DNA of 64,000 bases from Spirochaetia bacterium (GTDB lineage Bacteria > Spirochaetota > Spirochaetia > JABMQR01). Location: positions 891 to 64,890 of the forward strand of contig JAIPFR010000001.1 in the NCBI GenBank assembly GCA_021736525.1. Direction: 5' to 3'. Shown piece by piece: positions 39,418 through 54,954 of this stretch; within the stretch, counting starts at the first letter, position 1; each line of letters begins with the position of its first letter. Both the position numbers and the translations under genes were made by a program. The notes below the pieces were generated by a model, which was given only the letters and a program-made list of their open reading frames with translations, had not been told where the DNA came from and did no database searches.

Positions 39418-40875
39418 ATGCTCTGTCTTACTTTAACAGAAACCAGTCTGGAAAAAGATCTTCTGCAGTTTCAAAAAAACAGAGATCTTATCGATATGGC
39501 AGAGCTGAGGATAGATTTACTGGGATCGGAAATCTCAGTTGATGCTCTCCGGAGATTCCCCTCCCTGTGCGATAAACCGGTAATCCTGACTTGCCGTCGA
39601 AAAAAAGATGGCGGATTGTTTTCTCAAAGTGAAAGGGTGAGGGTCAATCTGTTAAAAAGACTCGCTTCTGGAAATTTTGCATACTGCGACTTGGAAGATG
39701 AACTGCCCAGAGGGGAAATAGACCTGACCTTCAGGGAAAAGGGCACCAGAATAATCCGCTCATTTCATGACATGACGGCAGTTCCGGGGAATTTGTTTAC
39801 ACGAATGCAGAAAATCGCAGAGCAGGGGGAGATTCCAAAAGCTGCTGTTATGCCGAATTCATTTGCAGATACGGCACGTATCTTTGAAGCGAAGAATGAA
39901 CTGCAGAAAATTGAACGAAAAATCATTATTGGAATGGGAAATTATGGAGTTCCTACCAGAATATTATATAAAAAAACAGGTTCATTTCTCACCTTCTGCT
40001 CAGCACCTGGAAGCAGTCCGGGAGCTCCCGGTCACTTAAATACAGAAAGTCTCCGAAAGCTTTACCGTTCTGATCAAATTACTGATGATACATCAATCTA
40101 TGGTATCATCGGTAATCCGGTAATGCATTCAGCTTCTCCCGCTATTCACAATCCAGGATACCATCGTCTTGGCATTGATGCCGTATATGTTCCTTTCATG
40201 GTTGACTCAGTACGGACGTTTTTCCCATTTGCAGAGTGGTTTGGAATTAAAGGTTTTTCCGTGACCGTTCCGCACAAGCAGAATGTACTTCCGTATCTTG
40301 GAAATATATCTCGAGAAGTTAAGCAGATTGGCAGCTGCAATACGGTTGTAAGAACAAAAAAGCTTTGGAAGGGCATCAATACTGATTACTATGGGTTTCT
40401 GCATCCGATTCATGAAGATTTGGAGATGGGCCACCTGAAACGTGCTTTAGTTATTGGAGCCGGGGGGGCTGCGCGTTCAGTAGTCTGGGCATTGAGGAAT
40501 TTCGGCTGCAGTGTTTATATAACAAATAGAACATTTGATAAAGCAGAAAGGCTTGCAGCTGAAACAGGTTCATCTGCGATTACACTCCAGGAAGCTAGCC
40601 GGCTCTGTGCCGACGAAGCGGAAAAATATCCTGACTTAATCATTCAAACAACCAGTGCCGGTATGGATCCGGATATTGAAAGCGACCCACTGCCGGAATA
40701 TAAGTTTACCGGTGAAGAAATAGTTTATGAGCTTGTTTACAAACCGCGAATAACCCGCTTTCTTAATCGAGCGATTCAGTCAGGCTGCAGAATTGTGTAC
40801 GGTTATGAAATGCTGTATGCCCAGGGTATACAGCAGTTTAAATCTTTCACAGGATTTGACTATCCGCAAAATTAA
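39418..40875 (+). CDS. aroDE: bifunctional 3-dehydroquinate dehydratase (type I) / shikimate 5-dehydrogenase
   Basis: N-terminal type-I DHQase region (LCLTLTETSLEKDL...AELRIDLL), C-terminal AroE region (IIGNPVMHSASPAIHN, GAGGAARSV Rossmann). Confidence 0.8.
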   Translation: MLCLTLTETSLEKDLLQFQKNRDLIDMAELRIDLLGSEISVDALRRFPSLCDKPVILTCRRKKDGGLFSQSERVRVNLLKRLASGNFAYCDLEDELPRGEIDLTFREKGTRIIRSFHDMTAVPGNLFTRMQKIAEQGEIPKAAVMPNSFADTARIFEAKNELQKIERKIIIGMGNYGVPTRILYKKTGSFLTFCSAPGSSPGAPGHLNTESLRKLYRSDQITDDTSIYGIIGNPVMHSASPAIHNPGYHRLGIDAVYVPFMVDSVRTFFPFAEWFGIKGFSVTVPHKQNVLPYLGNISREVKQIGSCNTVVRTKKLWKGINTDYYGFLHPIHEDLEMGHLKRALVIGAGGAARSVVWALRNFGCSVYITNRTFDKAERLAAETGSSAITLQEASRLCADEAEKYPDLIIQTTSAGMDPDIESDPLPEYKFTGEEIVYELVYKPRITRFLNRAIQSGCRIVYGYEMLYAQGIQQFKSFTGFDYPQN

Positions 40876-43064
40876 GGGGTGAACAAAGATGCATGAAGTT
40901 TTCTCAGTAAAAACACCTTTCTCACAGTATAGGATCTTTCAATACCCTCAGGCAGGGTTTTTCCTGTAATAACCGCATCTTGCCGGGCAGGGTACTGGAG
41001 AGATGTCGGCTGAAGAAGTGTGACGATTTCCCTACGGGATGCGTCACGCTCATGAATTTCAAGAAGCTCATTTTTTTTACTGAGAGCATCCTTACAGAGG
41101 TTTATTTTCCCCTGATAATCAAGACCCCGTGCCTCGCTGATTGTGGCATGGATTCGCGATCCCTTTATCTGCTCATCTGAAAGTATAAGCTTTTTATCAA
41201 TTCTAGCCCTGAAATCTTCGGTATCTTTTTCCGAGAGCTTTTTGAGATTAAGAGAGTTCAGCAGATCCTCTACGAATCCAGGAACGTTCTTTTCTGTATC
41301 TTCAGGAATGGCATACGCAGAATCTGCCTTCATTATCACTGAAAGGTTGATGTTTGATAAGTAATTATTTACTGTCTCAAGACTATCATCGATAAAGCTC
41401 ATTACCGACGGCTGCTGCATAGGCTCTTCGCTGCTTGAAGGTTTTTCAACATTTGAATATTTTGTCTTTGGAAGGTACTCAATGCCGAAAGAGGATAAAC
41501 AGCTTCTCCACACTTTTTCAGATTTACGGTCCATGAGAAACAAGCCTTCAGCCAGTGTTTCCAGAATGTATTGTTTAAAATCAGGATGAGAAGTTATGAT
41601 ACGGCTCATTGCTGCGTCTGCTTTCAGTACAATACCGGAAAGCAGCGATACTCGATTGTAACTGTCCCTCCATGTCTGCAAGGTCCGGAGTATGAGCGGG
41701 GGAACTTGAAATCCTGAGGCTTTCTCACAGGCAGATTGAAAATCTGTTATACTTCGGCCCATGTCGCAAGCTCTCAGGAAGCTCTTTTTAGTCAGGTCGA
41801 ATGAATACAGGATATCAATTTTTCTCAATTCAAGAAAAACCAGCAAATCAAAAGCATTCTCTGTATTAATTGAGGGGTCTGCGCGAATAGTAAAGTCTGA
41901 ATCCAAGGATGCAAAAGGTTTGGAAAGCATCTTCTGCGAAAGAGCAGGTGAGGAATTATCGGATTCTGCAAAAATCGGGTGTCTCGGGAACAGCTTACTG
42001 AAAAAGACTGTTATTCCAGGGTTTACGGCGTAATACCCTTCATATTGAGTGGGATAAAGAATCTGCTGTGACACCAGGACTTCCATTAATGGATTAAGAA
42101 GGATTTCTTGAAATTCCATGGAGTTTTTCTCGCTGCTGATTATTCGTGAAATTATGATCAGTCTTTGCAGGGCTTTCTCCCCGATCACGTTAAGGTTTCC
42201 TGCTGTCAGGAAAATCAGGAAAAACAACAATTGACTCATAATTTCCCGGGTAGGTGAGAGCCCCAGCAAAGCAGCTAAACCCGGCAGAAGCAGTCGCTGC
42301 GAGAGGGGTGACCCAGATATATCAGCAACAGATCGAATATCAAGATCGGACGCTATACAGGGAATATTCTTTTTTATTTCAACAATACCCAGTGTATTAA
42401 ATGCGCTGATTGCCAGATTCCATGCAGAAGAAAGTATTTCAGCAGTTTCAGGATTGCCGGAAATACTGGTGAATTTTTCTGACATCAGCTTTGGGGGCTG
42501 TCCGTCCGTTTGTTCTGCAGTGTTTCGCTGAAGAAGATGAACCAGTACTGTTGGAATGAAGAAACCATTGCTCAGACAGTCGGCAGGCAGCGGCTTAGCA
42601 GCAGCGGGCAATAAAACATTTTCAACTATTACTTGATTATTGCCGCAGCCAATCAGCAATGAAAAATCGATGAGTTTTTTTTCTGCCAGATCGTGGAAAA
42701 GAGGATTGATCTGAAGTCCGGTTCCGTCAGTCGAGGTAAGAAGGAGGAGACGTTCTTCAAGGTTAAGAACAGCATAATGCAGCTGAAAAAATTCAAGCTC
42801 ATCCTTGAAGATTTCATAAATATCCTGAATTGAAGGCTCTTCAAGCATGGATACTGCTGTCAGTATCTTCCTGTCCACGGTATCTGCTATTTCTGCTATT
42901 CGCTGCAGCACCTCGGTCCTGGTAAGAAAAGAGATAAGCTTTTTAATGAGGGTAGGTTTATGGAACGGTGTCTGAAGCGGACCCAGATAGTTTCGCATGA
43001 TATAGAAAAATGTATCATCGGGCATTGAGAGCAGAAGACTTGTGAACACATCCTGTTTATCCAT
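40872..43064 (-). CDS. large uncharacterised protein co-transcribed with XPB-like helicase (possible Bax1-like partner)
   Basis: 730 aa from ATG 43064 (TTG at 43079 alternative), 5 nt after helicase stop. No recognisable catalytic motif. Internal segments resemble the helicase N-terminal damage-recognition-like region. Confidence 0.5.
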   Translation of the reverse strand: MDKQDVFTSLLLSMPDDTFFYIMRNYLGPLQTPFHKPTLIKKLISFLTRTEVLQRIAEIADTVDRKILTAVSMLEEPSIQDIYEIFKDELEFFQLHYAVLNLEERLLLLTSTDGTGLQINPLFHDLAEKKLIDFSLLIGCGNNQVIVENVLLPAAAKPLPADCLSNGFFIPTVLVHLLQRNTAEQTDGQPPKLMSEKFTSISGNPETAEILSSAWNLAISAFNTLGIVEIKKNIPCIASDLDIRSVADISGSPLSQRLLLPGLAALLGLSPTREIMSQLLFFLIFLTAGNLNVIGEKALQRLIIISRIISSEKNSMEFQEILLNPLMEVLVSQQILYPTQYEGYYAVNPGITVFFSKLFPRHPIFAESDNSSPALSQKMLSKPFASLDSDFTIRADPSINTENAFDLLVFLELRKIDILYSFDLTKKSFLRACDMGRSITDFQSACEKASGFQVPPLILRTLQTWRDSYNRVSLLSGIVLKADAAMSRIITSHPDFKQYILETLAEGLFLMDRKSEKVWRSCLSSFGIEYLPKTKYSNVEKPSSSEEPMQQPSVMSFIDDSLETVNNYLSNINLSVIMKADSAYAIPEDTEKNVPGFVEDLLNSLNLKKLSEKDTEDFRARIDKKLILSDEQIKGSRIHATISEARGLDYQGKINLCKDALSKKNELLEIHERDASRREIVTLLQPTSLQYPARQDAVITGKTLPEGIERSYTVRKVFLLRKLHASLFTP

Positions 43065-43069
43065 GATAA

Positions 43070-44797
43070 TTAATCCCAATTCTCAATATGATACTTATAG
43101 CCTTGTTCAATAAGAAATTTCTGTCTGTTAGCAGAAAATTCTTCCTCGGTAGTAAAACGGGTGACAATGGAATAGAAACTTGACCCGTGCTCTTTAGGTC
43201 GAAGAATGCGTCCCAACCTTTGGGCTTCCTCCTGTCTGGAGCCGAAGGTGCCCGAAACTTGTATCGCTACGGATGCATCAGGCAGATCAATTGCGAAATT
43301 AGCAACTTTGGAAACAATTAAAATCCGCTGCTCACCCCTGCGGAAAGCACCATAGAGTTCTTCACGTCTGGCATTCTGAGTTAAGCCGGTAATGATCGGC
43401 TGCTTAAGTTCTTCCGCTAATTCTTTCAGTTGGGAAATGTATTGACCGATAACAAGAATGTAATCATCAGGATGGTTTTCAATAAGCTGTTTGACAACAT
43501 CTATTTTAAGAGGGTTTTCTGCTGCAATGCGATGCTTCTCCCGTCTGGTCCCGACGGCATAAGATAACTCCAGCTCCTGTTTGAGCGGAATGCGAATTTC
43601 ATAGCAGTTGGCTTCGGCAATCCAACCCTTCTGTTCCAGTTCCTTCCAGGGAACGTCATAACGTTTGGGCCCAACGAGAGAGAACACTTCATCCTCACGA
43701 TTATCTTCACGAACTAACGTTGCGGTGAGCCCCAGTCGGCTGATAGCCTGTATCTCTGCAGTAACTTTGAAGACTGGCGCGGGGAGAACATGTACTTCAT
43801 CATAGATAATCAGTCCCCAATTACGTTTGCTGAAAATACTGAAATGGGGAAAATCGCTCAGCTTGTCCTTTCTCCACGTCAGAATCTGGTATGTGCAGAC
43901 AGTAATTGGACAGATTTCCTTCTTGAATCCGGTATATTCACCGATCTGATCACGTTCTAGCGTTGTTTTATCAAGAAGTTCAAACATCCATTGATGCACT
44001 GCCGCCGTGTTGGTGGTGAGAATCAGGGTGTTAGTCTGAAGCGCTTCAATTACAGCAATACCGATAATTGTTTTTCCCGAACCGCAGGGAAGCACCAGAG
44101 TGCCGAAACCGGAGCAGCCATTGCCGGAAGCAGTAAAAGAATCCCTTGCTTCAAATTGGTAGTTCCTTATATCAAAAGGATATCCCGATAGAGTTTGACT
44201 TCGCAGGCTGACCGGCAGCGGATCTCCTTCCCTCAGGGGGCATTGATCATCAACCGGATACCCTGCTTTGATCAACTGAAGTTTCAGCTCTCCGCGATTA
44301 TACAGATGAACCAGAAACCCCAGCTGAATATCTTTCTGGTTCTCAATGTTTCTGCCGGTCAGATCAGGGTCAACGTTTTCCGGCAGGGGGGCAAGCAAAG
44401 ATGCTATATTTTTGCGCGACAGGAGTTCGTGATGAAGATTAGCTTCTGGTACATATAGATAAAGAAACTGATCGTTTTGGTTAATTCTGTGCAGTGAGAG
44501 AAGTCCATATCTGTTTATGGTTTCCTTTATAAAATAGAGGACATTTTCCGGGATGGGAAATCTGGACCAGAAAGAGAGTTCTTCGATAATCCTTTCGGCT
44601 GTGAACCCGGCTGAAGCGGCGTTCCAGATTGACAGAGAGGATAGCAGGTACGTATGGAAATGTTCGGGAGATTTTATCAGTTCAGCGAATGCTGCAAGTG
44701 AGTTGCGGGCATTCTGGAACTCTGGTGAGTGAACTTCGAGTAAAATAGTTCTGTCGCTTTGTATAATTACCGGACGCTCATGATCAGATTCAGTCAT
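43070..44797 (-). CDS. XPB/Ssl2 (ERCC3/RAD25)-type superfamily-2 DNA helicase
   Basis: N-terminal XPB-style domain, Walker A LPCGSGKT, DEVH box (IIYDEVHVL), XPB-specific RED motif (TATLVREDNRED), helicase C-domain motifs; 575 aa. Confidence 0.75.
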   Translation of the reverse strand: MTESDHERPVIIQSDRTILLEVHSPEFQNARNSLAAFAELIKSPEHFHTYLLSSLSIWNAASAGFTAERIIEELSFWSRFPIPENVLYFIKETINRYGLLSLHRINQNDQFLYLYVPEANLHHELLSRKNIASLLAPLPENVDPDLTGRNIENQKDIQLGFLVHLYNRGELKLQLIKAGYPVDDQCPLREGDPLPVSLRSQTLSGYPFDIRNYQFEARDSFTASGNGCSGFGTLVLPCGSGKTIIGIAVIEALQTNTLILTTNTAAVHQWMFELLDKTTLERDQIGEYTGFKKEICPITVCTYQILTWRKDKLSDFPHFSIFSKRNWGLIIYDEVHVLPAPVFKVTAEIQAISRLGLTATLVREDNREDEVFSLVGPKRYDVPWKELEQKGWIAEANCYEIRIPLKQELELSYAVGTRREKHRIAAENPLKIDVVKQLIENHPDDYILVIGQYISQLKELAEELKQPIITGLTQNARREELYGAFRRGEQRILIVSKVANFAIDLPDASVAIQVSGTFGSRQEEAQRLGRILRPKEHGSSFYSIVTRFTTEEEFSANRQKFLIEQGYKYHIENWD

Positions 44798-44838
44798 TAT
44801 TTTGTACCCTGCTTACTTGTTTTTCAATTTTATCGAAA

Positions 44839-45630
44839 TTATAGATGATATAAGTCCTCCCTCCGGTCAGAAAAAATATGGTTGCGTCTGGTTATATTCT
44901 TATCACGGGCAAGATCAGGATCAATATCTATGATAGCAATTTCCTCCTTGTCAGGAGAGGACGATGCAAGGATAGATCCGTCAGGTCCGGTTATCTGACT
45001 GCCTCCGGTGTAGGTGCATGATACAGGACCTGATTGTTCACTGCCAATTCTATTAGCCAGTATCCAGAATACCCGATTTTCTATCGACCGGGATCTTGTG
45101 GTTATTTGTGCGGCCCCTTCAATAACAAGGTTTGAGGGGTGACAGATTATCTGAGCCCCCAAAAGAGCGAGAGTTCTTGCAGCCTCAGGAAAAAGATGGT
45201 CAAAGCAAATCAGCATGCCGACAGTTGTACCGTTAACGTCAAAAGTAAAGAAATCCTCATTCCCCGGCTTAAAGTGGAGTTTTTCCCTGTTGAACAAGTG
45301 CGCCTTGCGATAGACTTTCATTACTCCTTCAGGGCTTATATAAACGGAACTGTTAAAAAAACTGCCGTCCAGAGCATCCTCTACACAACCGTATACATAG
45401 GAAGTATGGTTTTTAACTGCCATGCTGCTGAAAAAATCTGAAGTAGGACCGGGCAAAGTCTCGGCACAAAGCGCCAGTTCATCCTGGCTGCTGAATAGAT
45501 ATCCGGAGAGAGCGAGTTCAGGCAGTACCAAAAGATCCGTACAATTACCTGAAACAGCTGCAGAAATCTTGTTTCGTGTTTCTTCAAGGTTGTGAAAAAT
45601 TGGTGAATATTGGTAGTAACCTATTTTCAT
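44839..45630 (-). CDS. carbon-nitrogen hydrolase (nitrilase superfamily)
   Basis: Catalytic triad context: Glu in VLPELALSGY, Lys in VYRKAHLF, Cys in MLICFDHLFPE; 263 aa. Confidence 0.8.
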   Translation of the reverse strand: MKIGYYQYSPIFHNLEETRNKISAAVSGNCTDLLVLPELALSGYLFSSQDELALCAETLPGPTSDFFSSMAVKNHTSYVYGCVEDALDGSFFNSSVYISPEGVMKVYRKAHLFNREKLHFKPGNEDFFTFDVNGTTVGMLICFDHLFPEAARTLALLGAQIICHPSNLVIEGAAQITTRSRSIENRVFWILANRIGSEQSGPVSCTYTGGSQITGPDGSILASSSPDKEEIAIIDIDPDLARDKNITRRNHIFSDRREDLYHL

Positions 45631-45631
45631 T

Positions 45632-46225
45632 TTATTCTCCTGCCTCTAAATGCATCAAAAAGTTATTAATCATGCCTGCAGATTGTTCAATAGGCTGGTC
45701 GCCCGATATATCTATTATATAATCGGAGATCCCCCTATATTTTTCATCACGCTCCCTGAAAAGATTATGAAAACTGACTTCCGGTGCATTCTGATCAAGA
45801 AATGGAGGTATTCCGTTCTTCATAATCCGTGTCAGAAGAATCTTTTCATCCTGTTGAATGTAGAAAACTGTTCCGCCTGATATTTTAATGTGCTGAATAA
45901 GCCTGTTGTTATCACAAGCTCCGCCGCCAAGAGCAACAAGGAGCCTGGATTCTTTAGCATCAGCTGATTGTGCTAAATAGTTTCGCAGGGATGCAAATTC
46001 AATTTCTGCAAAGGCTTCTCTGCCGAATATACGGTAATACTCTCTTACTGAGACGCTGCGTTCGTATTGATTCTGCAGTGAATCAAGAATAAGATCATCA
46101 GCATCGGAAAATAGAAGATGGTGCTTCTCAGCGATGAGACGTCCGAGAGTGCTTTTCCCACAATGCTTCAATCCGCAAAAGAATAACGGCAGCGGTATTT
46201 TTTTCAGTAGTTGATTATGTTTCAC
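45632..46225 (-). CDS. P-loop kinase, shikimate kinase (AroK)-like
   Basis: Walker A FFCGLKHCGKSTLGRLIAE followed by FSDADDLI, as in AroK (GxxGxGKST.GR.LA....F.D.D..I). Start assigned to GTG at 46225, 1 nt after upstream stop (TAGcGTG). Confidence 0.5.
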   Translation of the reverse strand: MKHNQLLKKIPLPLFFCGLKHCGKSTLGRLIAEKHHLLFSDADDLILDSLQNQYERSVSVREYYRIFGREAFAEIEFASLRNYLAQSADAKESRLLVALGGGACDNNRLIQHIKISGGTVFYIQQDEKILLTRIMKNGIPPFLDQNAPEVSFHNLFRERDEKYRGISDYIIDISGDQPIEQSAGMINNFLMHLEAGE

Positions 46226-46226
46226 G

Positions 46227-46616
46227 CTAATTCCTGATACGGTCGGATTCCGATTCCGGATCGTCACTATAGGCCCTGAAATTTTCCGGTGATGCATCTC
46301 TATCCAGCAGTATTTTTCGGGAAGCTCTTTCAAACCGCAGAGTAAACAAATTCCTGTAGAGGATTATGAGACTTACCAGCCAGACCAATGCTCCCAGAGC
46401 CGGAAAAGAGGCTCTCAGCAGATCCAGGCCTTCAAGGATAATTATCTCTGCTGCGCTCGCAAACACATCATACAGAACGTCAATGAAAAACATGAATGAA
46501 GCGAAACTGGGGAGAATCCAATAGTAGCCCCACTGCTTGAAAACAGAGAACAGCGAGAAAATAAAAGCTGTCAAATGCAGCACTGCGGCTATCAGCTCGA
46601 TATGAAACAGTTCCAT
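46227..46616 (-). CDS. small integral membrane protein (3-4 TM helices), first gene of the operon
   Basis: 129 aa from ATG 46616 (MELFHIELIAAVLHLTAF...). Hydrophobic helices, charged C-terminal tail. Stop abuts the kinase GTG. Confidence 0.45.
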   Translation of the reverse strand: MELFHIELIAAVLHLTAFIFSLFSVFKQWGYYWILPSFASFMFFIDVLYDVFASAAEIIILEGLDLLRASFPALGALVWLVSLIILYRNLFTLRFERASRKILLDRDASPENFRAYSDDPESESDRIRN

Positions 46617-46752
46617 GGTTGTGAAGTATTCACGCTCCCTCAAAAAAAATGATTGAATATGCAAGATTGTCGATTACAGACACAGCATAGTATACTATCA
46701 ATAAGCAATTTTGATAAGCGACTGAGAACAAATATTACTTTGAGGTAATTAC

Positions 46753-47874
46753 ATGAATAATGTTATAGATTCATCCATCTTGAAGCAGCGGGTACATCCC
46801 AAAAAGGAAGATGCCAGGGGTGCCTATTTTCGGGATACAACGGCAATAATTCACTCGTATCCATTCAGGCGGCTGAAGCACAAAACCCAGGTGTTTTTTG
46901 CCCCGAGCAACGATCACATATGCACCAGAATTGAACATGTTATGCATGTAGCATCAATTGCAGCTTCAATAAGCAAGGGTTTGGGACTCGATGATGAACT
47001 AGCCTGGGCAATAGGAATGGGTCATGACCTTGGGCATACTCCGTTTGGTCATGTGGGGGAAACTATCCTGAACACACTCAACAGACAGAATGGCGGATTC
47101 ATTCACGAAGTATACTCCTTGAGAGTTGTAGATTATCTGGCAGAATACGGAAAAGGGTTAAACTTGACCTATGCCGTTCGCGACGGTATTATCAGCCATT
47201 GCGGAGAAAAATTTGAACAGTATATTCTTCCAGATCAGCGACCTAAAAATCTGGAAGCTGTCTCTGGACGTGATTCAACCCCGTCGACCTGGGAAGGCGC
47301 TGTTGTCCGGATTGCTGATAAGATAGCATATCTTGGGCGGGATTATGAAGATGCCGTAAAATTACGGGTTATAACGAACGATTCCCTTCCGGAGTCAATT
47401 AAGAGAGTTCTTGGATCTACCAATGGGGAGATAATTAACAATCTGGTGCATGATGTGATTGTCAGTTCAGGTGAATCCCGTGGAATCGGTTTTTCTGATG
47501 ATATATTCGAAGGCGTCTGCAAAATGAAAGAGCATAACTACGAAAGAATTTATAAATCACCGCTGCTTTCAGAATACCATACCTATTTCGAGCGAATCAT
47601 GCGTATTATATATGAGTATCTTGAAATGATCTTCTCCCGTAACGGCTTCAACATCATTGCCTACAAAAAGGAAAAAAACCTGCTTGCTGTACGTTTTGGT
47701 GATTATGTGATTAAAATGAGAGATTTTTACGAAAGAATAGACGGCAATTTCAGGCAGATTGTAAGTGATTATGTTGCAGGAATGAGCGATAACTATGCAC
47801 TGGACAGTATAAACGAGATTCTGCAGCCGCGATATATGGAAAATCAGTTTAACCGTTTCGAGATGGAGCGCTGA
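46753..47874 (+). CDS. dGTP triphosphohydrolase-like HD-domain protein (Dgt family)
   Basis: HD motif H...GHDLGHTPFGH, Dgt-like N-terminus HSYPFRRLKHKTQVF; RBS GAGG 7 nt upstream. Confidence 0.8.
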   Translation: MNNVIDSSILKQRVHPKKEDARGAYFRDTTAIIHSYPFRRLKHKTQVFFAPSNDHICTRIEHVMHVASIAASISKGLGLDDELAWAIGMGHDLGHTPFGHVGETILNTLNRQNGGFIHEVYSLRVVDYLAEYGKGLNLTYAVRDGIISHCGEKFEQYILPDQRPKNLEAVSGRDSTPSTWEGAVVRIADKIAYLGRDYEDAVKLRVITNDSLPESIKRVLGSTNGEIINNLVHDVIVSSGESRGIGFSDDIFEGVCKMKEHNYERIYKSPLLSEYHTYFERIMRIIYEYLEMIFSRNGFNIIAYKKEKNLLAVRFGDYVIKMRDFYERIDGNFRQIVSDYVAGMSDNYALDSINEILQPRYMENQFNRFEMER

Positions 47875-50851: not shown

Positions 50852-51674
50852 CTGGTACTGTTGCGGGCGAAAACGTTTCTCTCACAGCCTTGCAATTGGC
50901 TGAACTGCCAGCTATGAGAATATCCGCAGTTTCCGTACCGTTCAGCAGAGCGGTACTGCAGGAAAAAGGGACTCCCTCAAAATCAGACAACTCCATTCCG
51001 GCAAAAGACAAAATACTGTGGGCGGCTGCAATATCCCAGATGAATCCGCCGGTACAAATTGAGGCGTCAATGTCTTCGTGGATAACCGGGGAGAGCAAAT
51101 GCAGTATGCTGCTTCCAAAATTCCGGCACTTCCCGGAAAACCTTCTAAGATCCAAAGCTTTGTGGATTTTTGAGCTTATAACTATCTGACGCAGAGGAGA
51201 TTTTGAAAAATCTTTGCGGGGTTCAAACTGAATTCCGTTAACTGTCATAATTTGAGGATGCCCGGGATCAAGTCTGACAAATAATCCGGTACGTACATCA
51301 GGTCCCCAGCGTGGTGCATAGACCATTGCTCCAACCGGGTTACCGGTCTTATCGAGAATTCCCAGGGCAACGCACCAGGCCGGCATTCCCTGACTGTAGA
51401 CATCGGTACCGTCAACAGGATCGAGAATAAAATACAATTCCGGGGTTGAAGCGGAGTCGCATTCCGGCATCCTCAACCCTGACTCCTCCGACAAAACAGC
51501 AGCTTCAGGAAACAGGCGACTGATTTCCCTCACAAGCAAACGATCAATATATAAGTCGGTTTCAGTGAGCACCGACCCGTCCTTCTTGTAGTTCCGGCAG
51601 ATTCCTGACTGCCTGTCAGCAGCATAATCTCCGCATTTTCGGATCATGCGGCTCAATTCTTCATATCGAATCAT
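50817..51674 (-). CDS. inositol monophosphatase family protein (IMPase/CysQ-like)
   Basis: FILDPVDGTDVY metal-binding motif and WDIAAAHSIL motif of the FIG/IMPase superfamily. Confidence 0.75.
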   Translation of the reverse strand: MIRYEELSRMIRKCGDYAADRQSGICRNYKKDGSVLTETDLYIDRLLVREISRLFPEAAVLSEESGLRMPECDSASTPELYFILDPVDGTDVYSQGMPAWCVALGILDKTGNPVGAMVYAPRWGPDVRTGLFVRLDPGHPQIMTVNGIQFEPRKDFSKSPLRQIVISSKIHKALDLRRFSGKCRNFGSSILHLLSPVIHEDIDASICTGGFIWDIAAAHSILSFAGMELSDFEGVPFSCSTALLNGTETADILIAGSSANCKAVRETFSPATVPATEQSPYPSSV

Positions 51675-51714
51675 ATTGATTACTGACTTCCTCTATGATA
51701 GGTTTACGGTGAAT

Positions 51715-54700
51715 ATGATAACAGCATTGGAAAATAAATTATATAGATACATACGACACAGTGATTTTTATAAAGCCTTTCTCGCACGGGGTATGAAAAC
51801 CGTCCACGCAGAAGGCATTGAGGGATTTCTGTTTGCTTTTTTTGTTAAAATGGCTTCAGCCTCAGTAAAAAAAAAGACCTGGGTGATACTTCCTACAGAA
51901 GAGGATGTTCTGAACCTTCTCAAAAACCTTGATGTGCTTGACTGCAGAACTGTACGTATAGAATCTACTGGTCTCAGTCTTTATGCCGAAGAATCCTTCA
52001 GCGAAGCTTTTTTCAAGCGTATTCAGACCTTTGCCCAAATAGCAGCGGGAAAAGAGGGAGTCAGAGTTGCTTCTCTTCGGGCTTTTTCGACCGCCGTCCC
52101 ATCCCCTGAAATGCTGAAAGAAGCCAGGAAAACTCTGGTCGTGGGACAAAATATCGATACGACACTACTATCGGAAACATTAGCTGACAGCGGATTTCTA
52201 CGGGTCCCCGGTACAACGATGCCGGGAGAATTTTCAATTCGCGGAGAAGTAGTCGATATTTTCCCCTATGAAGCAGAGTTTCCTTTCAGATTATATATAG
52301 CATGGGAAATAATAGAAAAAATCAGCAATTATGATCCTCTTGGACAGGAAACCTTCAACACCATACCGGAATTCACCTTTTCTCTTGCTAAGTCCGGTGA
52401 GAAAAAAATGGGCTTTATTGATTCCTATATAGACTCAGAAGATGTAATTATCCTGTTCGGAGAACAGAGACTGGCTGCAACCTATGAGTCCTTCAGAATG
52501 GAAGCGCAGAAGCTTTTCCGTGAAGCTTACAATGCAGACAAAAACTGCAAGAGACCCGACGAAATGCTTTTCCCTTATGATTATTATGAGAGTAATCATA
52601 AAAACTGCATCATAATAGATGATATCAGGGGTCAGCATAGCGATGCAGTTACATTGAGTACAGTCGGGCCACGTTCCTATTTCGGCAACTTGACCTATTT
52701 TCAGAACGAAATCGCCGCCCTCAAGGAAGAGAACTATCGGATTATACTATTTGCCGGTACCGTCAGTCAGAAACAGCGGCTGGAAATGATACTCAGGGAT
52801 GATGAAATCGAAATCATCCCCCGTGAAATATCTGAAGGATTTTCCATACCTGAAGAACGCCTGATCGCAGTTTGTGACCATGAGATTTTCGGAAGGCGCA
52901 GAAAGTCACTTAAAGCGCTGCATCATACAAAAACATCTCCGCTCGACACCTTCGTCGATCTTGAGCCTGGCGATTTTGTGGTTCATATCAATTATGGAAT
53001 TGGTATTTTCCGGAAAATCGATCGGATAAAAGCTTTGGGAAAAGAGCGGGACTACATTCAAATAGAATATGCAGAGCATGAAAATGTATTTATTCCCATT
53101 GAACAGGCAAATCTTGTCCAGCGATTTATCGGGAAAGACGGGACTGCTCCTAAACTAGATAAAATCGGCGGCACCTCCTGGGAAACGAAAAAGCGACGGG
53201 CACGGAAAAATGCTGAAGATCTGGCAGATAGACTGATAAAGCTGTATGCCCGGAGAAAGCAGGCTTTTGGAACAGCTGTACCCAAAGACAGCGACTGGCA
53301 GCTGCAGTTCGAGGCGATGTTCCCCTTTGAAGAGACAGAAGATCAGATAACCTGTATGCAGGACATAAAAGAAGATATGGAAAAGCCGATTGTCATGGAT
53401 CGTCTCATCTGCGGTGACGTGGGCTATGGGAAAACGGAATTGGCAATTCGGGCGGCATTTAAAGCTGTTATGTCCGGTAAACAAGTAGCATTTCTTGCTC
53501 CAACCACCATCCTTGCCGAACAGCATTATGATACGGTTGTACAGAGGGTGGAACCATTCCCTCTTCGCATTAAAATGCTTTCCAGATTGGTCAGCCCGAA
53601 AGAACAGCGGAAATCACTGAAAATGCTGGCTCAGGGGGAGATAGATATACTGATAGGTACTCACCGGATAATCCAGAAAGATGTCATATATAAGGATCTC
53701 GGGCTGCTTATTGTAGATGAGGAACAGCGTTTCGGGGTTAAAGATAAAGAAAAAATAAAGGAATTAAAGGCTTCAGTTGATAGTTTAGCCCTCTCAGCTA
53801 CCCCCATCCCCCGAACACTGTATATGTCCCTGCTGAAAATAAGAGACATGTCCCTGCTTACCACACCCCCGATTCAAAGGCGTGCTATTCAGACAATAAT
53901 CCGTGAATATGATGAGCCTCTTGTTCGAACTGCAATCCTTCAGGAAGCGGAAAGAGGAGGACAGGTTTTTTATCTGCATAATCGGATTGAAACCCTGGAT
54001 AAAGTAGTTTCATCGTTAAAAAACCTCGTCCCGGAAGTCAGTATAGATTTTGCTCACGGACAGATGGATCCTGAGCAGCTTGAAGATAAAATGCGGCTTT
54101 TTGTACACAATGGTTTCCAGGTATTAGTGGCTACAACCATTATCGAAAATGGAATCGATATACCCAACGTAAATACCATTATTATCGATCGAGCAGATCG
54201 CTACGGAGTCAGTCAGCTGTATCAGCTGCGCGGAAGGGTAGGACGCTCAGATCGGGATGCATACGCATACCTCCTCTATCCCAACAGAAAGGCTCTTTCT
54301 GAAATTGCCATGAAAAGACTCAAAATTTTATCTGAACACACGGAATTGGGTTCCGGCTTCAAAATTGCCATGAAGGATATGGAAATGCGCGGAACCGGAA
54401 ATCTGCTGGGCCGTGAACAGAGCGGACAAATGCAGGCTGTCGGGCTGGATATGTATTTGCGAATACTTGATGAAGAAATCAGCAAATTGTCAAAAACTGA
54501 TGAGCTTTCACGAAAAGATGTTTTTCTGGATCTGGACTATTCCGGTTATATCCCCGATTTTTATATTGAAGATGCAAGTACGAAATTTGAGATTTACCGG
54601 AAAATTGCCGGTATAACAAAAGACATACAAATACAGCAGCTTACCTCAGAGCTTGAGGACAGGTTTGGTCCAGTTCCATCTGATGTGCAGAGTCTGCTCT

Positions 54701-54954
54701 ATATTGCCGAGCTGAAAGTATTGTGCCGTAAGCTTGATATTTACCATTTGCAGGAATTACGGGGAACCGTACGGGTTGAGTTTTCAAAAATAACCAGCAT
54801 TTCTGTAGATCGGTTAGTCGATATGATCAGGGAAAGCACCGGAGCGGTATCCATTGACCAGAAAAAACCCAATGTTGTTATCATGAAAACCGAAGCTGTA
54901 TCCCTGAAAGACAAAAGTCTTTTTATGCTTGAAAAGCTTCAGCGACTATTGTAA
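51715..54954 (+). CDS. mfd: transcription-repair coupling factor
   Basis: UvrB-homology N-region, RNAP-interacting domain, SF2 translocase with GDVGYGKTELAIRAA Walker A and DEEQRFGV, TRG motif region, C-terminal D7. Start (51715 vs 51646) uncertain. Confidence 0.9.
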   Translation: MITALENKLYRYIRHSDFYKAFLARGMKTVHAEGIEGFLFAFFVKMASASVKKKTWVILPTEEDVLNLLKNLDVLDCRTVRIESTGLSLYAEESFSEAFFKRIQTFAQIAAGKEGVRVASLRAFSTAVPSPEMLKEARKTLVVGQNIDTTLLSETLADSGFLRVPGTTMPGEFSIRGEVVDIFPYEAEFPFRLYIAWEIIEKISNYDPLGQETFNTIPEFTFSLAKSGEKKMGFIDSYIDSEDVIILFGEQRLAATYESFRMEAQKLFREAYNADKNCKRPDEMLFPYDYYESNHKNCIIIDDIRGQHSDAVTLSTVGPRSYFGNLTYFQNEIAALKEENYRIILFAGTVSQKQRLEMILRDDEIEIIPREISEGFSIPEERLIAVCDHEIFGRRRKSLKALHHTKTSPLDTFVDLEPGDFVVHINYGIGIFRKIDRIKALGKERDYIQIEYAEHENVFIPIEQANLVQRFIGKDGTAPKLDKIGGTSWETKKRRARKNAEDLADRLIKLYARRKQAFGTAVPKDSDWQLQFEAMFPFEETEDQITCMQDIKEDMEKPIVMDRLICGDVGYGKTELAIRAAFKAVMSGKQVAFLAPTTILAEQHYDTVVQRVEPFPLRIKMLSRLVSPKEQRKSLKMLAQGEIDILIGTHRIIQKDVIYKDLGLLIVDEEQRFGVKDKEKIKELKASVDSLALSATPIPRTLYMSLLKIRDMSLLTTPPIQRRAIQTIIREYDEPLVRTAILQEAERGGQVFYLHNRIETLDKVVSSLKNLVPEVSIDFAHGQMDPEQLEDKMRLFVHNGFQVLVATTIIENGIDIPNVNTIIIDRADRYGVSQLYQLRGRVGRSDRDAYAYLLYPNRKALSEIAMKRLKILSEHTELGSGFKIAMKDMEMRGTGNLLGREQSGQMQAVGLDMYLRILDEEISKLSKTDELSRKDVFLDLDYSGYIPDFYIEDASTKFEIYRKIAGITKDIQIQQLTSELEDRFGPVPSDVQSLLYIAELKVLCRKLDIYHLQELRGTVRVEFSKITSISVDRLVDMIRESTGAVSIDQKKPNVVIMKTEAVSLKDKSLFMLEKLQRLL

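What the first reader, a model, noticed from the sequence alone, without database searches (positions are those of the whole stretch)
40872..46616. Compact five-gene operon: membrane protein, P-loop kinase, CN-hydrolase, XPB-type helicase, 735-aa unknown
Five minus-strand genes are packed with coupling-type junctions, so they are almost certainly co-transcribed and co-translated. The junctions are: membrane-protein stop TAG then 1 nt then kinase GTG; kinase stop TAA then 1 nt then CN-hydrolase ATG; a 41-nt gap before the helicase; helicase stop TAA then 5 nt then partner ATG. A nitrilase-superfamily amidase, a shikimate-kinase-like P-loop protein and a small TM protein fused into one transcript with an XPB/Ssl2 repair-type helicase and its partner is not a pathway I can name. 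The helicase plus large accessory protein plus small-molecule enzymes architecture resembles nucleic-acid surveillance, modification or defence modules. It is flanked by housekeeping aroDE (convergent) and a divergent dGTPase-like gene.
Basis: partly seen in the sequence, partly recalled or inferred. Interest (0 to 1): 0.72.

Follow-up and report, generated by a model that had tools for sequence, protein, structure and literature searches.

The report
Mixed operon hiding bacterial XPB–p52 pair
The five tightly packed genes are real but are not one pathway: three are ordinary metabolic genes, including the shikimate kinase, and the last two are a DNA helicase (XPB) and a conserved partner that proves to be a bacterial relative of p52, the XPB-binding subunit of the eukaryotic factor TFIIH.

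Summary
Observation confirmed.

The interpretation as one surveillance or defence module is not supported.
- The kinase is a shikimate-kinase family protein. In seven related genomes it is coupled to chorismate synthase (aroC).
- In those genomes kinase-aroC-CN hydrolase is separated from the helicase pair by two opposite-strand genes. In at least twelve other loci it is absent from the neighbourhood.
- There are no PADLOC defence hits, no phage relatives and no compositional anomaly. The flanks are housekeeping genes.

The conserved unit is the last two genes.
- The helicase is bacterial XPB (NCBIfam equivalog, 816 bits).
- The 730-aa "unknown" belongs to the spirochaete TP_0021 family. It follows XPB directly in 31 of 41 informative genomes.
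- Its predicted structure matches TFIIH p52/Tfb2 (Foldseek E 5e-8; the top 22 hits are TFIIH-complex chains).
- Profile comparison with p52 gives 96.6% probability across the XPB-binding "clutch" domain.
- Its C-terminus is a WYL-like beta-barrel instead of p52's p8-binding domain.
- Related partners sit beside or near XPB in Actinomycetota, Deinococcota, Bacillota and Cyanobacteriota.

I found no paper describing this. Physical and functional coupling is inferred, not shown.

The parts
46227..46616 (-). Small hydrophobic protein (129 aa; alternative TTG start at 46664). First gene of the run, function unknown.
   Evidence: ORF. No Pfam, NCBIfam, PADLOC or PHROG match. Orthologues at 38-78% identity occur only in the nearest clade. 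Three hydrophobic stretches were read by eye.
45632..46225 (-). Shikimate-kinase family P-loop kinase (197 aa, GTG start), most likely aroK.
   Evidence: Pfam SKI 73 bits. The best NCBIfam hits are all shikimate kinases but fall below the equivalog cut-offs. Orthologues overlap the start of aroC in seven genomes. The canonical Arg58 and Arg117 (M. tuberculosis kinase numbering) are replaced.
44839..45630 (-). Nitrilase-superfamily CN hydrolase (263 aa) with an intact Glu-Lys-Cys triad. Substrate unknown.
   Evidence: Pfam CN_hydrolase 150 bits. NCBIfam archaeal-type nitrilase 218 bits, below the 500 cut-off. Best solved relative is PH0642, E 9e-53, with the triad motifs aligned. It follows the kinase, or kinase-aroC, in both clades.
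44798..44838 (-). 41-nt gap between the metabolic genes and the helicase pair. This is the seam between the two units.
   Evidence: Sequence. Only a weak 9/12 promoter-like match. In the Sediminispirochaeta clade this position holds two opposite-strand genes.
43070..44797 (-). Bacterial XPB helicase/translocase (575 aa).
   Evidence: NCBIfam NF045503 'DNA repair helicase XPB' 815.7 bits against a 610 cut-off. Pfam Helicase_C_3, ResIII, ERCC3_RAD25_C and Helicase_C. GSGKT, DEVH and RED motifs read.
44393..44770 (-). XPB N-terminal domain (residues 10-135, Pfam Helicase_C_3). Proposed docking surface for the partner.
   Evidence: Pfam 103 bits. The partner-family HMM cross-hits this domain in the adjacent XPB of 22 fetched loci and of the window, at E about 7e-6 to 6e-9.
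40872..43064 (-). TP_0021-family protein (730 aa): a p52/Tfb2-like partner of XPB.
42660..43064 (-). N-terminal TP_0021_N region (about residues 1-135). The most conserved part of the family; helical, winged-helix-like.
41625..41918 (-). Clutch-like domain (residues 383-480), homologous to the p52 clutch and to the XPB N-terminal domain.
   Evidence: Pfam Helicase_C_3, 27 bits, residues 388-504. hhalign against human p52 305-408 gives 91.6%, E 8e-7. The p52 clutch is residues 306-399 (PMC6422496).
40890..41147 (-). C-terminal WYL-like (Sm/SH3-type) beta-barrel (about residues 640-725).
39418..40875 (+). aroD/aroE fusion, convergent, stop codons overlapping by 4 nt. Context only, not part of the transcript.
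   Evidence: Pfam DHquinase_I plus shikimate dehydrogenase domains. Convergent next to the partner gene in 35 of 40 informative loci.
46689..46717 (-). Promoter-like match (TTATCA-17-TATACT) upstream of the first gene.
   Evidence: A consensus match only; the number of such sites is not above shuffled expectation.

Best explanation
The run is a composite operon made of two unrelated units that lie side by side in one spirochaete lineage.

Unit 1 is the small membrane protein, the shikimate-kinase family enzyme and the CN hydrolase. This is metabolic housekeeping. The kinase is most likely the shikimate-pathway aroK, next to aroDE. The hydrolase has an intact catalytic triad but an unknown substrate.

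Unit 2 is XPB plus the 730-aa TP_0021-family protein. This is a two-protein DNA-transaction module, the bacterial counterpart of the XPB-p52 sub-module of TFIIH.

Inferred mechanism for unit 2:
- The partner's clutch-like domain pairs with the homologous N-terminal domain of XPB. In TFIIH these two domains form a pseudo-symmetric heterodimer.
- This holds the partner against the XPB motor and tunes its ATPase/translocase activity.
- The partner's winged-helix domains and its C-terminal WYL-like barrel supply nucleic-acid or protein contacts. The barrel replaces p52's p8-binding domain and may recognise single-stranded DNA.
- These contacts would direct XPB to damaged or unwound DNA.

Shown here: gene order, domain content, homology and conservation. 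Inferred: co-transcription, complex formation, ATPase regulation, ligand binding and a role in repair.
For: Anatomy.

Unit 1
- Pfam SKI and CN_hydrolase.
- In seven Sediminispirochaeta-clade genomes the kinase overlaps aroC (Chorismate_synt, 446 bits). The hydrolase follows, then two opposite-strand genes, then XPB-partner.
- The Glu-Lys-Cys triad is aligned to PH0642.

Unit 2
- XPB equivalog, 815.7 bits against a 610 cut-off.
- XPB lies directly upstream of the partner in 31 of 41 informative genome loci. This holds down to 21% partner identity and in loci that have lost the aroDE neighbour.
- Gaps between the two genes are 3-5 nt in the window, L001, L053 and L054, and 45 nt in L002.
- The partner profile against PDB sequences gives Tfb2/p52 as its top three hits, then the XPB N-terminal domain.
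- Foldseek top 22 hits are TFIIH-complex chains of p52 length, with alignments of 337-565 columns.
- hhalign: 91.6% against a human p52 fragment and 96.6% (E 4.8e-10, 218 columns) against a p52 alignment.
- The partner HMM hits the N-terminal domain of the neighbouring XPB.
- In TFIIH the p52 clutch and the XPB N-terminal domain form the recruiting dimer (PMC6422496).
- XPB at 46-50% identity in Actinomyces, Deinococcus, Paenibacillus, Acaryochloris and Tsukamurella lies beside or near a 620-850 aa protein. Four of these partners were scanned; all carry Helicase_C_3 and are recognised by the partner HMM (E 1e-22 to 2e-5).
- T. pallidum has an ERCC3-like helicase, TP0380. The Pfam family name implies that it also has TP_0021.
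Against: - There is no direct evidence of a transcript, a complex or an activity.
- Nine of 41 informative loci carry the partner gene without XPB next door, so adjacency is not obligatory. Whether those genomes hold XPB elsewhere could not be checked.
- The partner scores nothing against Pfam Tfb2 and lacks the Tfb2_C domain.
- Global TM-scores to p52 are low (0.15-0.33) because the multi-domain models do not superpose as rigid bodies.
- The kinase lacks two arginines conserved in characterised shikimate kinases, and its scores fall below every NCBIfam equivalog cut-off.
- Kinase and hydrolase stay within 7 kb of XPB in two clades (12 genomes). A loose functional tie is therefore not excluded.
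Confidence: 0.7

Rival explanations
1. One reading: all five genes form one functional module, a helicase-centred nucleic-acid surveillance, modification or defence system. The kinase, the amidase and the membrane protein would make or sense a small molecule for it.
For: Tight junctions and no internal terminator. The contiguous five-gene arrangement is kept at 36-39% partner identity in the nearest clade. Kinase and hydrolase remain within 7 kb of XPB in a second clade. The kinase lacks two canonical shikimate-kinase arginines. Weak PADLOC hits exist: PbeA for the helicase, VakA for the kinase.
Against: In the second clade the kinase is coupled to aroC, and two opposite-strand genes separate it from XPB. 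Twelve XPB-partner loci have no kinase or hydrolase within 6-10 kb upstream. In the nearest clade the whole 20-kb housekeeping block is syntenic, so conservation there is not specific to these genes. The PADLOC hits are generic helicase and P-loop matches, far below the XPB equivalog score. There are no phage or plasmid relatives of the partner and no GC anomaly.
Confidence: 0.07
2. The 730-aa protein is chiefly a WYL-type, damage-sensing transcription regulator of the PafBC/DriD/CapW kind: winged-helix domains plus a ligand-binding barrel. It would act independently of XPB or only regulate it.
Against: The central domain is specifically p52-clutch/XPB-N-terminal-like, which known WYL regulators lack (my knowledge of those families, not tested). 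The domain order is collinear with p52 over more than 500 alignment columns. XPB adjacency holds across five phyla. No WYL or WCX sequence family matches.
Confidence: 0.12
3. The partner gene is functionally tied to aromatic amino-acid synthesis, because its most constant neighbour is aroDE, not XPB.
For: aroDE is convergent, with touching or overlapping 3' ends, in 35 of 40 informative loci. That includes all nine loci that lack XPB.
Against: Convergent genes share no transcript. The fold and domains are those of a DNA-factor subunit. The most divergent loci (L048, L050, L052) keep XPB but not aroDE. Partners in other phyla have no aro neighbours. T. pallidum, which gave the family its name, lacks the shikimate pathway (my knowledge, not tested here).
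Confidence: 0.04
4. The partner is a nuclease that works with XPB, as Bax1 does in archaea.
For: By analogy only. Archaeal XPB is paired with the nuclease Bax1 (PMC7672443, PMC13024598).
Against: No nuclease family matches in Pfam or NCBIfam. No nuclease fold appears among the structural hits. The best matches are p52/Tfb2, which is not an enzyme.
Confidence: 0.03

Closest known systems
XPB-p52 (Ssl2-Tfb2) sub-module of eukaryotic TFIIH
   Same: An XPB helicase carrying the N-terminal Helicase_C_3 domain, plus a partner whose central domain is homologous to that domain (the clutch). Upstream winged-helix domains lie in the same order. Support: hhalign 96.6% over 218 columns; Foldseek E 5e-8 with alignments covering nearly all of p52 (PMC6422496).
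   Different: The partner is about 270 aa longer. It does not reach the Pfam Tfb2 threshold. It lacks the p8-binding Tfb2_C domain and carries a linker plus a WYL-like barrel instead. It has its own conserved N-terminal domain (PF27388). The window encodes no other recognisable TFIIH subunit next to it. Binding and ATPase stimulation are untested.
Bacterial XPB with its 'helicase-associated domain-containing protein' neighbour (Actinomycetota, Deinococcota, Bacillota, Cyanobacteriota)
   Same: The same two-gene pairing. The partner is 620-850 aa with a Helicase_C_3 domain in the C-terminal half. The spirochaete partner HMM recognises the four scanned partners at E 1e-22 to 2e-5.
   Different: The spirochaete branch is divergent. 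Helicase_C_3 scores below the Pfam threshold (27 bits against 34.2). PGAP leaves the protein as 'hypothetical', and it has its own Pfam N-terminal family. It has no tblastn match in the plasmid collection. Gene order varies: the partner lies upstream in Acaryochloris, divergent in Actinomyces and 3.5 kb away in Tsukamurella.
Archaeal XPB-Bax1 helicase-nuclease pair
   Same: XPB is encoded beside a dedicated partner that modulates it (PMC13024598).
   Different: Bax1 is a nuclease that binds the XPB thumb-like motif (ThM) and second helicase domain (HD2). The partner here is p52-like, has no nuclease signature, and is predicted to bind the N-terminal domain.
WYL-domain sensors (PafBC, DriD, CapW, BrxR)
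   Different: There is no sequence-level WYL match. The rest of the protein is p52-like, not HTH-WYL-WCX. Ligand binding is untested.
aroK-aroC and aroDE shikimate gene clusters
   Same: The kinase has the SKI fold, Walker A, DxD and GGG motifs. It is coupled to aroC in relatives and lies 5 kb from aroDE.
   Different: It lacks Arg58 and the lid-loop Arg117 of characterised shikimate kinases, and it scores below all NCBIfam equivalog cut-offs.

Membership tests
Bacterial XPB helicase (NCBIfam NF045503) | Score above the curated equivalog cut-off | tested here: met
   815.7 bits against a 610 cut-off, full length 9-572.
Bacterial XPB helicase (NCBIfam NF045503) | SF2 motifs (Walker A GSGKT, DEVH box), RED motif and an N-terminal Helicase_C_3 domain | tested here: met
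   PCGSGKT, YDEVH and LVREDN read in the translation. Helicase_C_3 103 bits at residues 10-135.
Bacterial XPB helicase (NCBIfam NF045503) | DNA-dependent ATPase and 3'-5' helicase/translocase activity | not testable with these tools
   Needs biochemistry. Shown for M. tuberculosis XPB (PMC3353954).
TFIIH p52/Tfb2 | Clutch domain homologous to the XPB N-terminal domain | tested here: met
   hhalign: partner 383-479 against human p52 305-408, 91.6%. 96.6%, E 4.8e-10, against a p52 alignment. The partner HMM hits the neighbouring XPB N-terminal domain.
TFIIH p52/Tfb2 | Overall architecture: winged-helix domains followed by the clutch, collinear with p52 | tested here: met
TFIIH p52/Tfb2 | Match to Pfam Tfb2 (PF03849) at the gathering threshold | tested here: not met
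   No Tfb2 hit at E <= 0.01. The sequence-only PDB profile search gives E 0.01-0.05.
TFIIH p52/Tfb2 | C-terminal p8/Tfb5-binding domain (Pfam Tfb2_C, PF18307) | tested here: not met
   No hit. The C-terminal domain model matches WYL-type barrels instead.
TFIIH p52/Tfb2 | Binds XPB and stimulates its ATPase | not testable with these tools
   Inferred from homology and gene adjacency.
WYL domain | Sm/SH3-like barrel closest to known WYL domains | tested here: met
WYL domain | Sequence match to Pfam WYL | tested here: not met
   None among 13 family members at E <= 10.
Shikimate kinase (AroK) | SKI fold with Walker A, DxD and GGG motifs | tested here: met
   Pfam SKI 73 bits. Motifs aligned.
Shikimate kinase (AroK) | NCBIfam equivalog cut-off | tested here: not met
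   Best score 68 bits against a 142 cut-off.
Shikimate kinase (AroK) | Substrate and catalytic arginines (M. tuberculosis kinase Arg58, Arg117, Arg136) | tested here: not met
   Arg58 becomes A/Q/M and Arg117 becomes I/L (G[IL]PPFL) in the window and all 13 orthologues. Arg136 is kept.
Shikimate kinase (AroK) | Genomic linkage to other shikimate-pathway genes | tested here: met
   Overlaps the aroC start in seven genomes. aroDE lies 5 kb away in the window.
Nitrilase superfamily | CN_hydrolase domain with the Glu-Lys-Cys triad | tested here: met
   150 bits. PELALSGY, YRKAHLF and ICFDH align with PH0642. No specific equivalog is reached.
Known anti-phage defence system | Protein matches to a PADLOC system model set | tested here: not met
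   Only generic helicase (PbeA) and P-loop (VakA) matches. Nothing for the partner, the hydrolase or the membrane protein.
XPB-Bax1 pair | Adjacent Bax1-type nuclease | tested here: not met
   The partner has no nuclease family match and no nuclease fold among its structural hits.
Operon (single transcript) | Same strand, short gaps, no internal terminator | tested here: met
   Gaps of 1, 1, 41 and 5 nt. No minus-strand terminator-like site.
Operon (single transcript) | One mRNA spanning all five genes | not testable with these tools
   Needs RNA-seq or RT-PCR across the 41-nt gap.

The most novel reading that the evidence does not exclude
Bacteria possess an XPB-p52 core that is the same module as the XPB-p52 arm of TFIIH, but with a WYL-like single-stranded-DNA sensor in place of the p8-binding domain. 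Bacterial XPB carries the N-terminal domain that pairs with p52. At least A. fulgidus XPB appears to lack it (PMC3353954), and archaeal XPB uses the nuclease Bax1 as its partner. The eukaryotic XPB-p52 pair could therefore descend from a bacterial two-gene module rather than from the archaeal XPB-Bax1 system. The bacterial module might act at stalled or opening transcription complexes as well as in repair.
Probability: 0.15. Interest if true: 0.85.

Novelty: new variant of a known kind. Interest (0 to 1): 0.55.

Why it matters
The role of XPB in bacteria is still described as elusive (2026 review PMC13024598). [quoted passage not shown]

A conserved p52-like partner encoded next to XPB, in spirochaetes (including the family named after a syphilis-agent gene) and in at least four other phyla, yields a concrete and testable hypothesis. 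Bacterial XPB would work as a two-subunit machine built like the XPB-p52 arm of TFIIH, with an added WYL-like domain that may sense single-stranded DNA.

This bears on how the TFIIH core arose. It also bears on DNA repair and mutation rate in Treponema, where a TP0380 (XPB) variant has been linked to faster SNP accumulation (PMC8735616).

For the scan itself, the lesson is that tight gene junctions do not make a pathway. Three of the five genes are ordinary neighbours.

Tried and rejected
The scan was repeated with A1.
The proposed interface is therefore untested.
- PADLOC, PHROGs, the viral-contig scan and the plasmid tblastn gave nothing for the partner.
- Rfam at E <= 1 gave only one chance-level hit inside the partner gene. 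The repeat search gave only short, chance-level matches. There is no leader RNA, riboswitch or repeat array.
- The 99-aa ORFs beside the partner genes of Deinococcus and Actinomyces were checked as a possible p8-like third subunit. They share no similarity.
- Two haloarchaeal plasmid XPB-like helicases were inspected for a p52-like neighbour. Neither has an annotated one.
- Six literature searches found no paper on TP_0021, on Rv0862c-type partners as p52 homologues, or on a bacterial p52.
- Pfam WYL was sought in 13 C-terminal fragments and not found.
- Rejected ideas: a defence island, a Bax1-like nuclease, and a functional tie to aroDE. Reasons are given under the rival explanations.
- Not resolved: whether the kinase is the only aroK of this genome (only one 64-kb window was available), and whether genomes whose partner gene lacks an adjacent XPB carry XPB elsewhere.

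Full report
**1. The observation**

The ORF list and the sequence show five consecutive minus-strand ORFs between 46616 and 40872. They are a 129-aa hydrophobic protein, a 197-aa kinase (GTG start), a 263-aa CN hydrolase, a 575-aa helicase and a 730-aa protein.

AGGA and GGAG lie 6 nt before the kinase and hydrolase starts. No terminator-like site lies on the minus strand. Promoter-like matches are at chance frequency; one lies upstream of the first gene and a weak one lies in the 41-nt gap. GC content matches the flanks. No Rfam family reaches significance, with only one chance-level hit at E 0.66, and there is no repeat structure. Co-transcription is plausible but not shown.

**2. What the proteins are**

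- Pfam and NCBIfam give SKI (shikimate kinase family, 73 bits) and CN_hydrolase (150 bits).
- The helicase matches the NCBIfam equivalog "DNA repair helicase XPB" at 815.7 bits against a 610 cut-off. It has an N-terminal Helicase_C_3 domain.
- The membrane protein matches nothing.
- The 730-aa protein shows only a sub-threshold Helicase_C_3 match at residues 388-504. The protein database lists it under a newer Pfam family, PF27388 "TP_0021_N", named after a Treponema pallidum gene.
- The exact protein comes from a Spirochaetia MAG.
- PADLOC and PHROGs give nothing that points to a defence system or a phage.

**3. Is the five-gene set conserved?**

I fetched neighbourhoods through exact-protein look-ups. 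I also ran a scan of one genome per species with the partner alignment, which returned 45 loci. All but one are labelled as spirochaetes; L037 is labelled Lentisphaeria. I mapped all window proteins onto these loci by tblastn and by an HMM. There are four results.

- The contiguous membrane-kinase-hydrolase-XPB-partner run occurs only in the nearest clade (L008-L011, L024 and metagenome locus L002; partner identity 36-78%). There the whole 20-kb housekeeping block is syntenic: nrdR, dGTPase, aroDE, an ABC-F protein, maf and rpsB-tsf-frr-uppS-cdsA-dxr. Conservation there is therefore not specific to the five genes.
- In seven Sediminispirochaeta-clade genomes the kinase overlaps the start of chorismate synthase (Pfam 446 bits). 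The CN hydrolase follows. Then come two opposite-strand genes, a glycosyltransferase and a PRPP-synthetase-like protein, and only then XPB-partner.
- Twelve further loci have XPB-partner with no kinase or hydrolase within 6-10 kb upstream (L023, L032, L039, L041-L043, L045, L046, L048, L050, L053, L054).
- XPB lies directly upstream of the partner in 31 of 41 informative loci, 1.9 kb away in one, and is absent in nine. The most divergent loci (L048, L050, L052; 21-36% identity) keep the pair.

The five genes therefore fall into two units.

**4. The metabolic unit**

Coupling to aroC, together with the aroDE neighbour, makes the kinase the probable aroK. One oddity remains. In the window and all 13 orthologues, the arginines equivalent to M. 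tuberculosis shikimate kinase Arg58 and lid-loop Arg117 are replaced (FA/FQ/FM and G[IL]PPFL). Walker A, DxD, GGG and Arg136 are kept.

The hydrolase has the Glu-Lys-Cys triad and is closest to Pyrococcus PH0642-type enzymes. Its substrate is unknown. Its constant position after aroK, or after aroK-aroC, is unexplained.

**5. The partner is p52-like**

- Family size: a profile of 13 family members finds 720 cluster representatives at E < 1e-30, all 640-780 aa except one 290-aa fragment.
- Sequence against PDB: the three best hits are Tfb2 and human p52 (E 0.01-0.05), followed by XPB N-terminal domains.
- Foldseek: an AlphaFold model (pLDDT 73.5) gives 22 top hits that are all chains of TFIIH-containing entries, about 290-460 residues long. 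E-values run from 4.8e-8 to 7e-4, with alignments of 337-565 columns. Chains 8ebt_D and 6trs_A/B are identified as p52/Tfb2. I take the remaining chains to be p52/Tfb2 from my knowledge of those entries.
- hhalign: the family alignment against a human p52 fragment gives 91.6%. Partner residues 383-479 align with p52 305-408. That is the clutch domain, residues 306-399, which recruits XPB in TFIIH through a pseudo-symmetric dimer with the XPB N-terminal domain (PMC6422496). Against an alignment of 18 eukaryotic p52 proteins the result is 96.6%, E 4.8e-10, over 218 columns (partner residues 218-480).
- Cross-hit: the partner HMM hits the N-terminal domain of the adjacent XPB in 22 fetched loci and in the window (E about 7e-6 to 6e-9).
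- Pfam: precomputed annotations of eukaryotic p52 include Helicase_C_3. The domain link is therefore implicit in Pfam.

**6. Where it differs from p52**

**7. Beyond spirochaetes**

A tblastn search of the plasmid collection with XPB found homologues at 46-50% identity in Actinomyces, Deinococcus, Paenibacillus, Acaryochloris, Tsukamurella and others. In all five loci inspected, XPB lies beside or near a 620-850 aa protein. PGAP names four of these "helicase-associated domain-containing protein". The four that I scanned carry Helicase_C_3 and are recognised by the spirochaete partner HMM (E 1e-22, 5e-18, 2e-7, 2e-5).

The pairing is therefore widespread in bacteria, and the spirochaete family is a divergent branch of it. 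Two haloarchaeal XPB-like genes had no such neighbour.

**8. Literature**

- A 2026 review calls bacterial XPB function elusive and names only Bax1 as a prokaryotic partner (PMC13024598).
- T. pallidum TP0380 is an ERCC3-like helicase, and a variant of it is associated with a faster-evolving subclade (PMC8735616).
- Six searches found no description of the partner family or of its relation to p52. The library is incomplete, so prior recognition cannot be excluded.

**9. Mechanism and confidence**

Best explanation (0.7): a composite operon. XPB and its p52-like partner form a complex through the N-terminal-domain/clutch pair. The partner regulates the motor and targets it through its winged-helix and WYL-like domains. 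The kinase, the hydrolase and the membrane protein are metabolic neighbours.

Shown: anatomy, homology and conservation. Inferred: the transcript, the complex, the regulation, the ligand and the repair role.

Rival explanations: a five-gene functional module (0.07), a stand-alone WYL-type regulator (0.12), a tie to aroDE (0.04) and a Bax1-like nuclease (0.03).

**10. Verdict**

The finding as written over-reads tight junctions. What it contains is a little-noticed bacterial counterpart of the TFIIH XPB-p52 pair with a different C-terminal module. I rate it a new variant of a known kind, with moderate interest (0.55).

Noticed in passing
window 45632-46225; orthologues in L001, L002, L009-L014, L021, L024, L026, L036, L040: This shikimate-kinase subfamily replaces two arginines conserved in characterised enzymes (M. 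tuberculosis kinase Arg58 becomes A/Q/M; lid-loop Arg117 becomes I/L in a conserved G[IL]PPFL motif). It is nevertheless coupled to aroC in seven genomes. A conserved Arg in an upstream 'VRE.Y' motif may compensate, or the substrate may differ.
   Followed up: partly
window 40872-40875; L004 11992-12013; L006 4120-4163; L053 13659-13708; L054 11664-11704: The partner gene and aroDE are convergent, with touching or overlapping 3' ends (4-50 nt), in 35 of 40 informative spirochaete genomes. This is more constant than the XPB adjacency and includes all nine loci without XPB. No explanation was found.
   Followed up: partly
window 44839-45630; L012 4753-5544: The CN hydrolase always follows aroK, or aroK-aroC, in both clades that have it. 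A link between this PH0642-type amidase and chorismate or aromatic metabolism is possible but unexplained.
   Followed up: no
window 46753-47874 (+): The divergent HD-domain dGTPase-like gene matches the PADLOC dGTPase model (193 bits) and the NCBIfam anti-phage dGTPase model (139 bits, below the 400 cut-off). Its best match is a housekeeping dGTPase equivalog (293 bits, below the 393 cut-off). It sits in conserved synteny beside nrdR, so a housekeeping role is more likely than defence.
   Followed up: partly
window 51646-54954 (+), by synteny with L001 1-1299: The transcription-repair coupling factor Mfd lies about 7 kb from XPB in the same syntenic block. This was identified from Pfam domains on the L001 orthologue; the window ORF itself was not scanned. 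It is probably coincidental.
   Followed up: no
L037 (JAWOEV010000217.1): This contig is labelled Lentisphaeria but carries the Sediminispirochaeta-type PRPP-synthetase-like gene (92% identity), XPB and a partner gene. It is probably a mis-binned spirochaete contig.
   Followed up: no
L026 8297-12069; L041 9764-11955: The partner gene (and in L026 also XPB) is split into two ORFs. These are frameshifts, pseudogenes or assembly errors.
   Followed up: no
L057 6753-7052; L055 4199-4498: In Deinococcus and Actinomyces a 99-aa ORF sits immediately before the partner gene. The two share no detectable similarity, so there is no evidence for a conserved p8-like third subunit.
   Followed up: yes
P0281-P0400 (eukaryotic GTF2H4/Tfb2 proteins): Precomputed Pfam annotations of many eukaryotic p52 proteins include PF13625 Helicase_C_3. 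The model named 'Helicase conserved C-terminal domain' in fact covers the XPB N-terminal domain, the p52 clutch and the bacterial partner domain. The name is misleading.
   Followed up: partly
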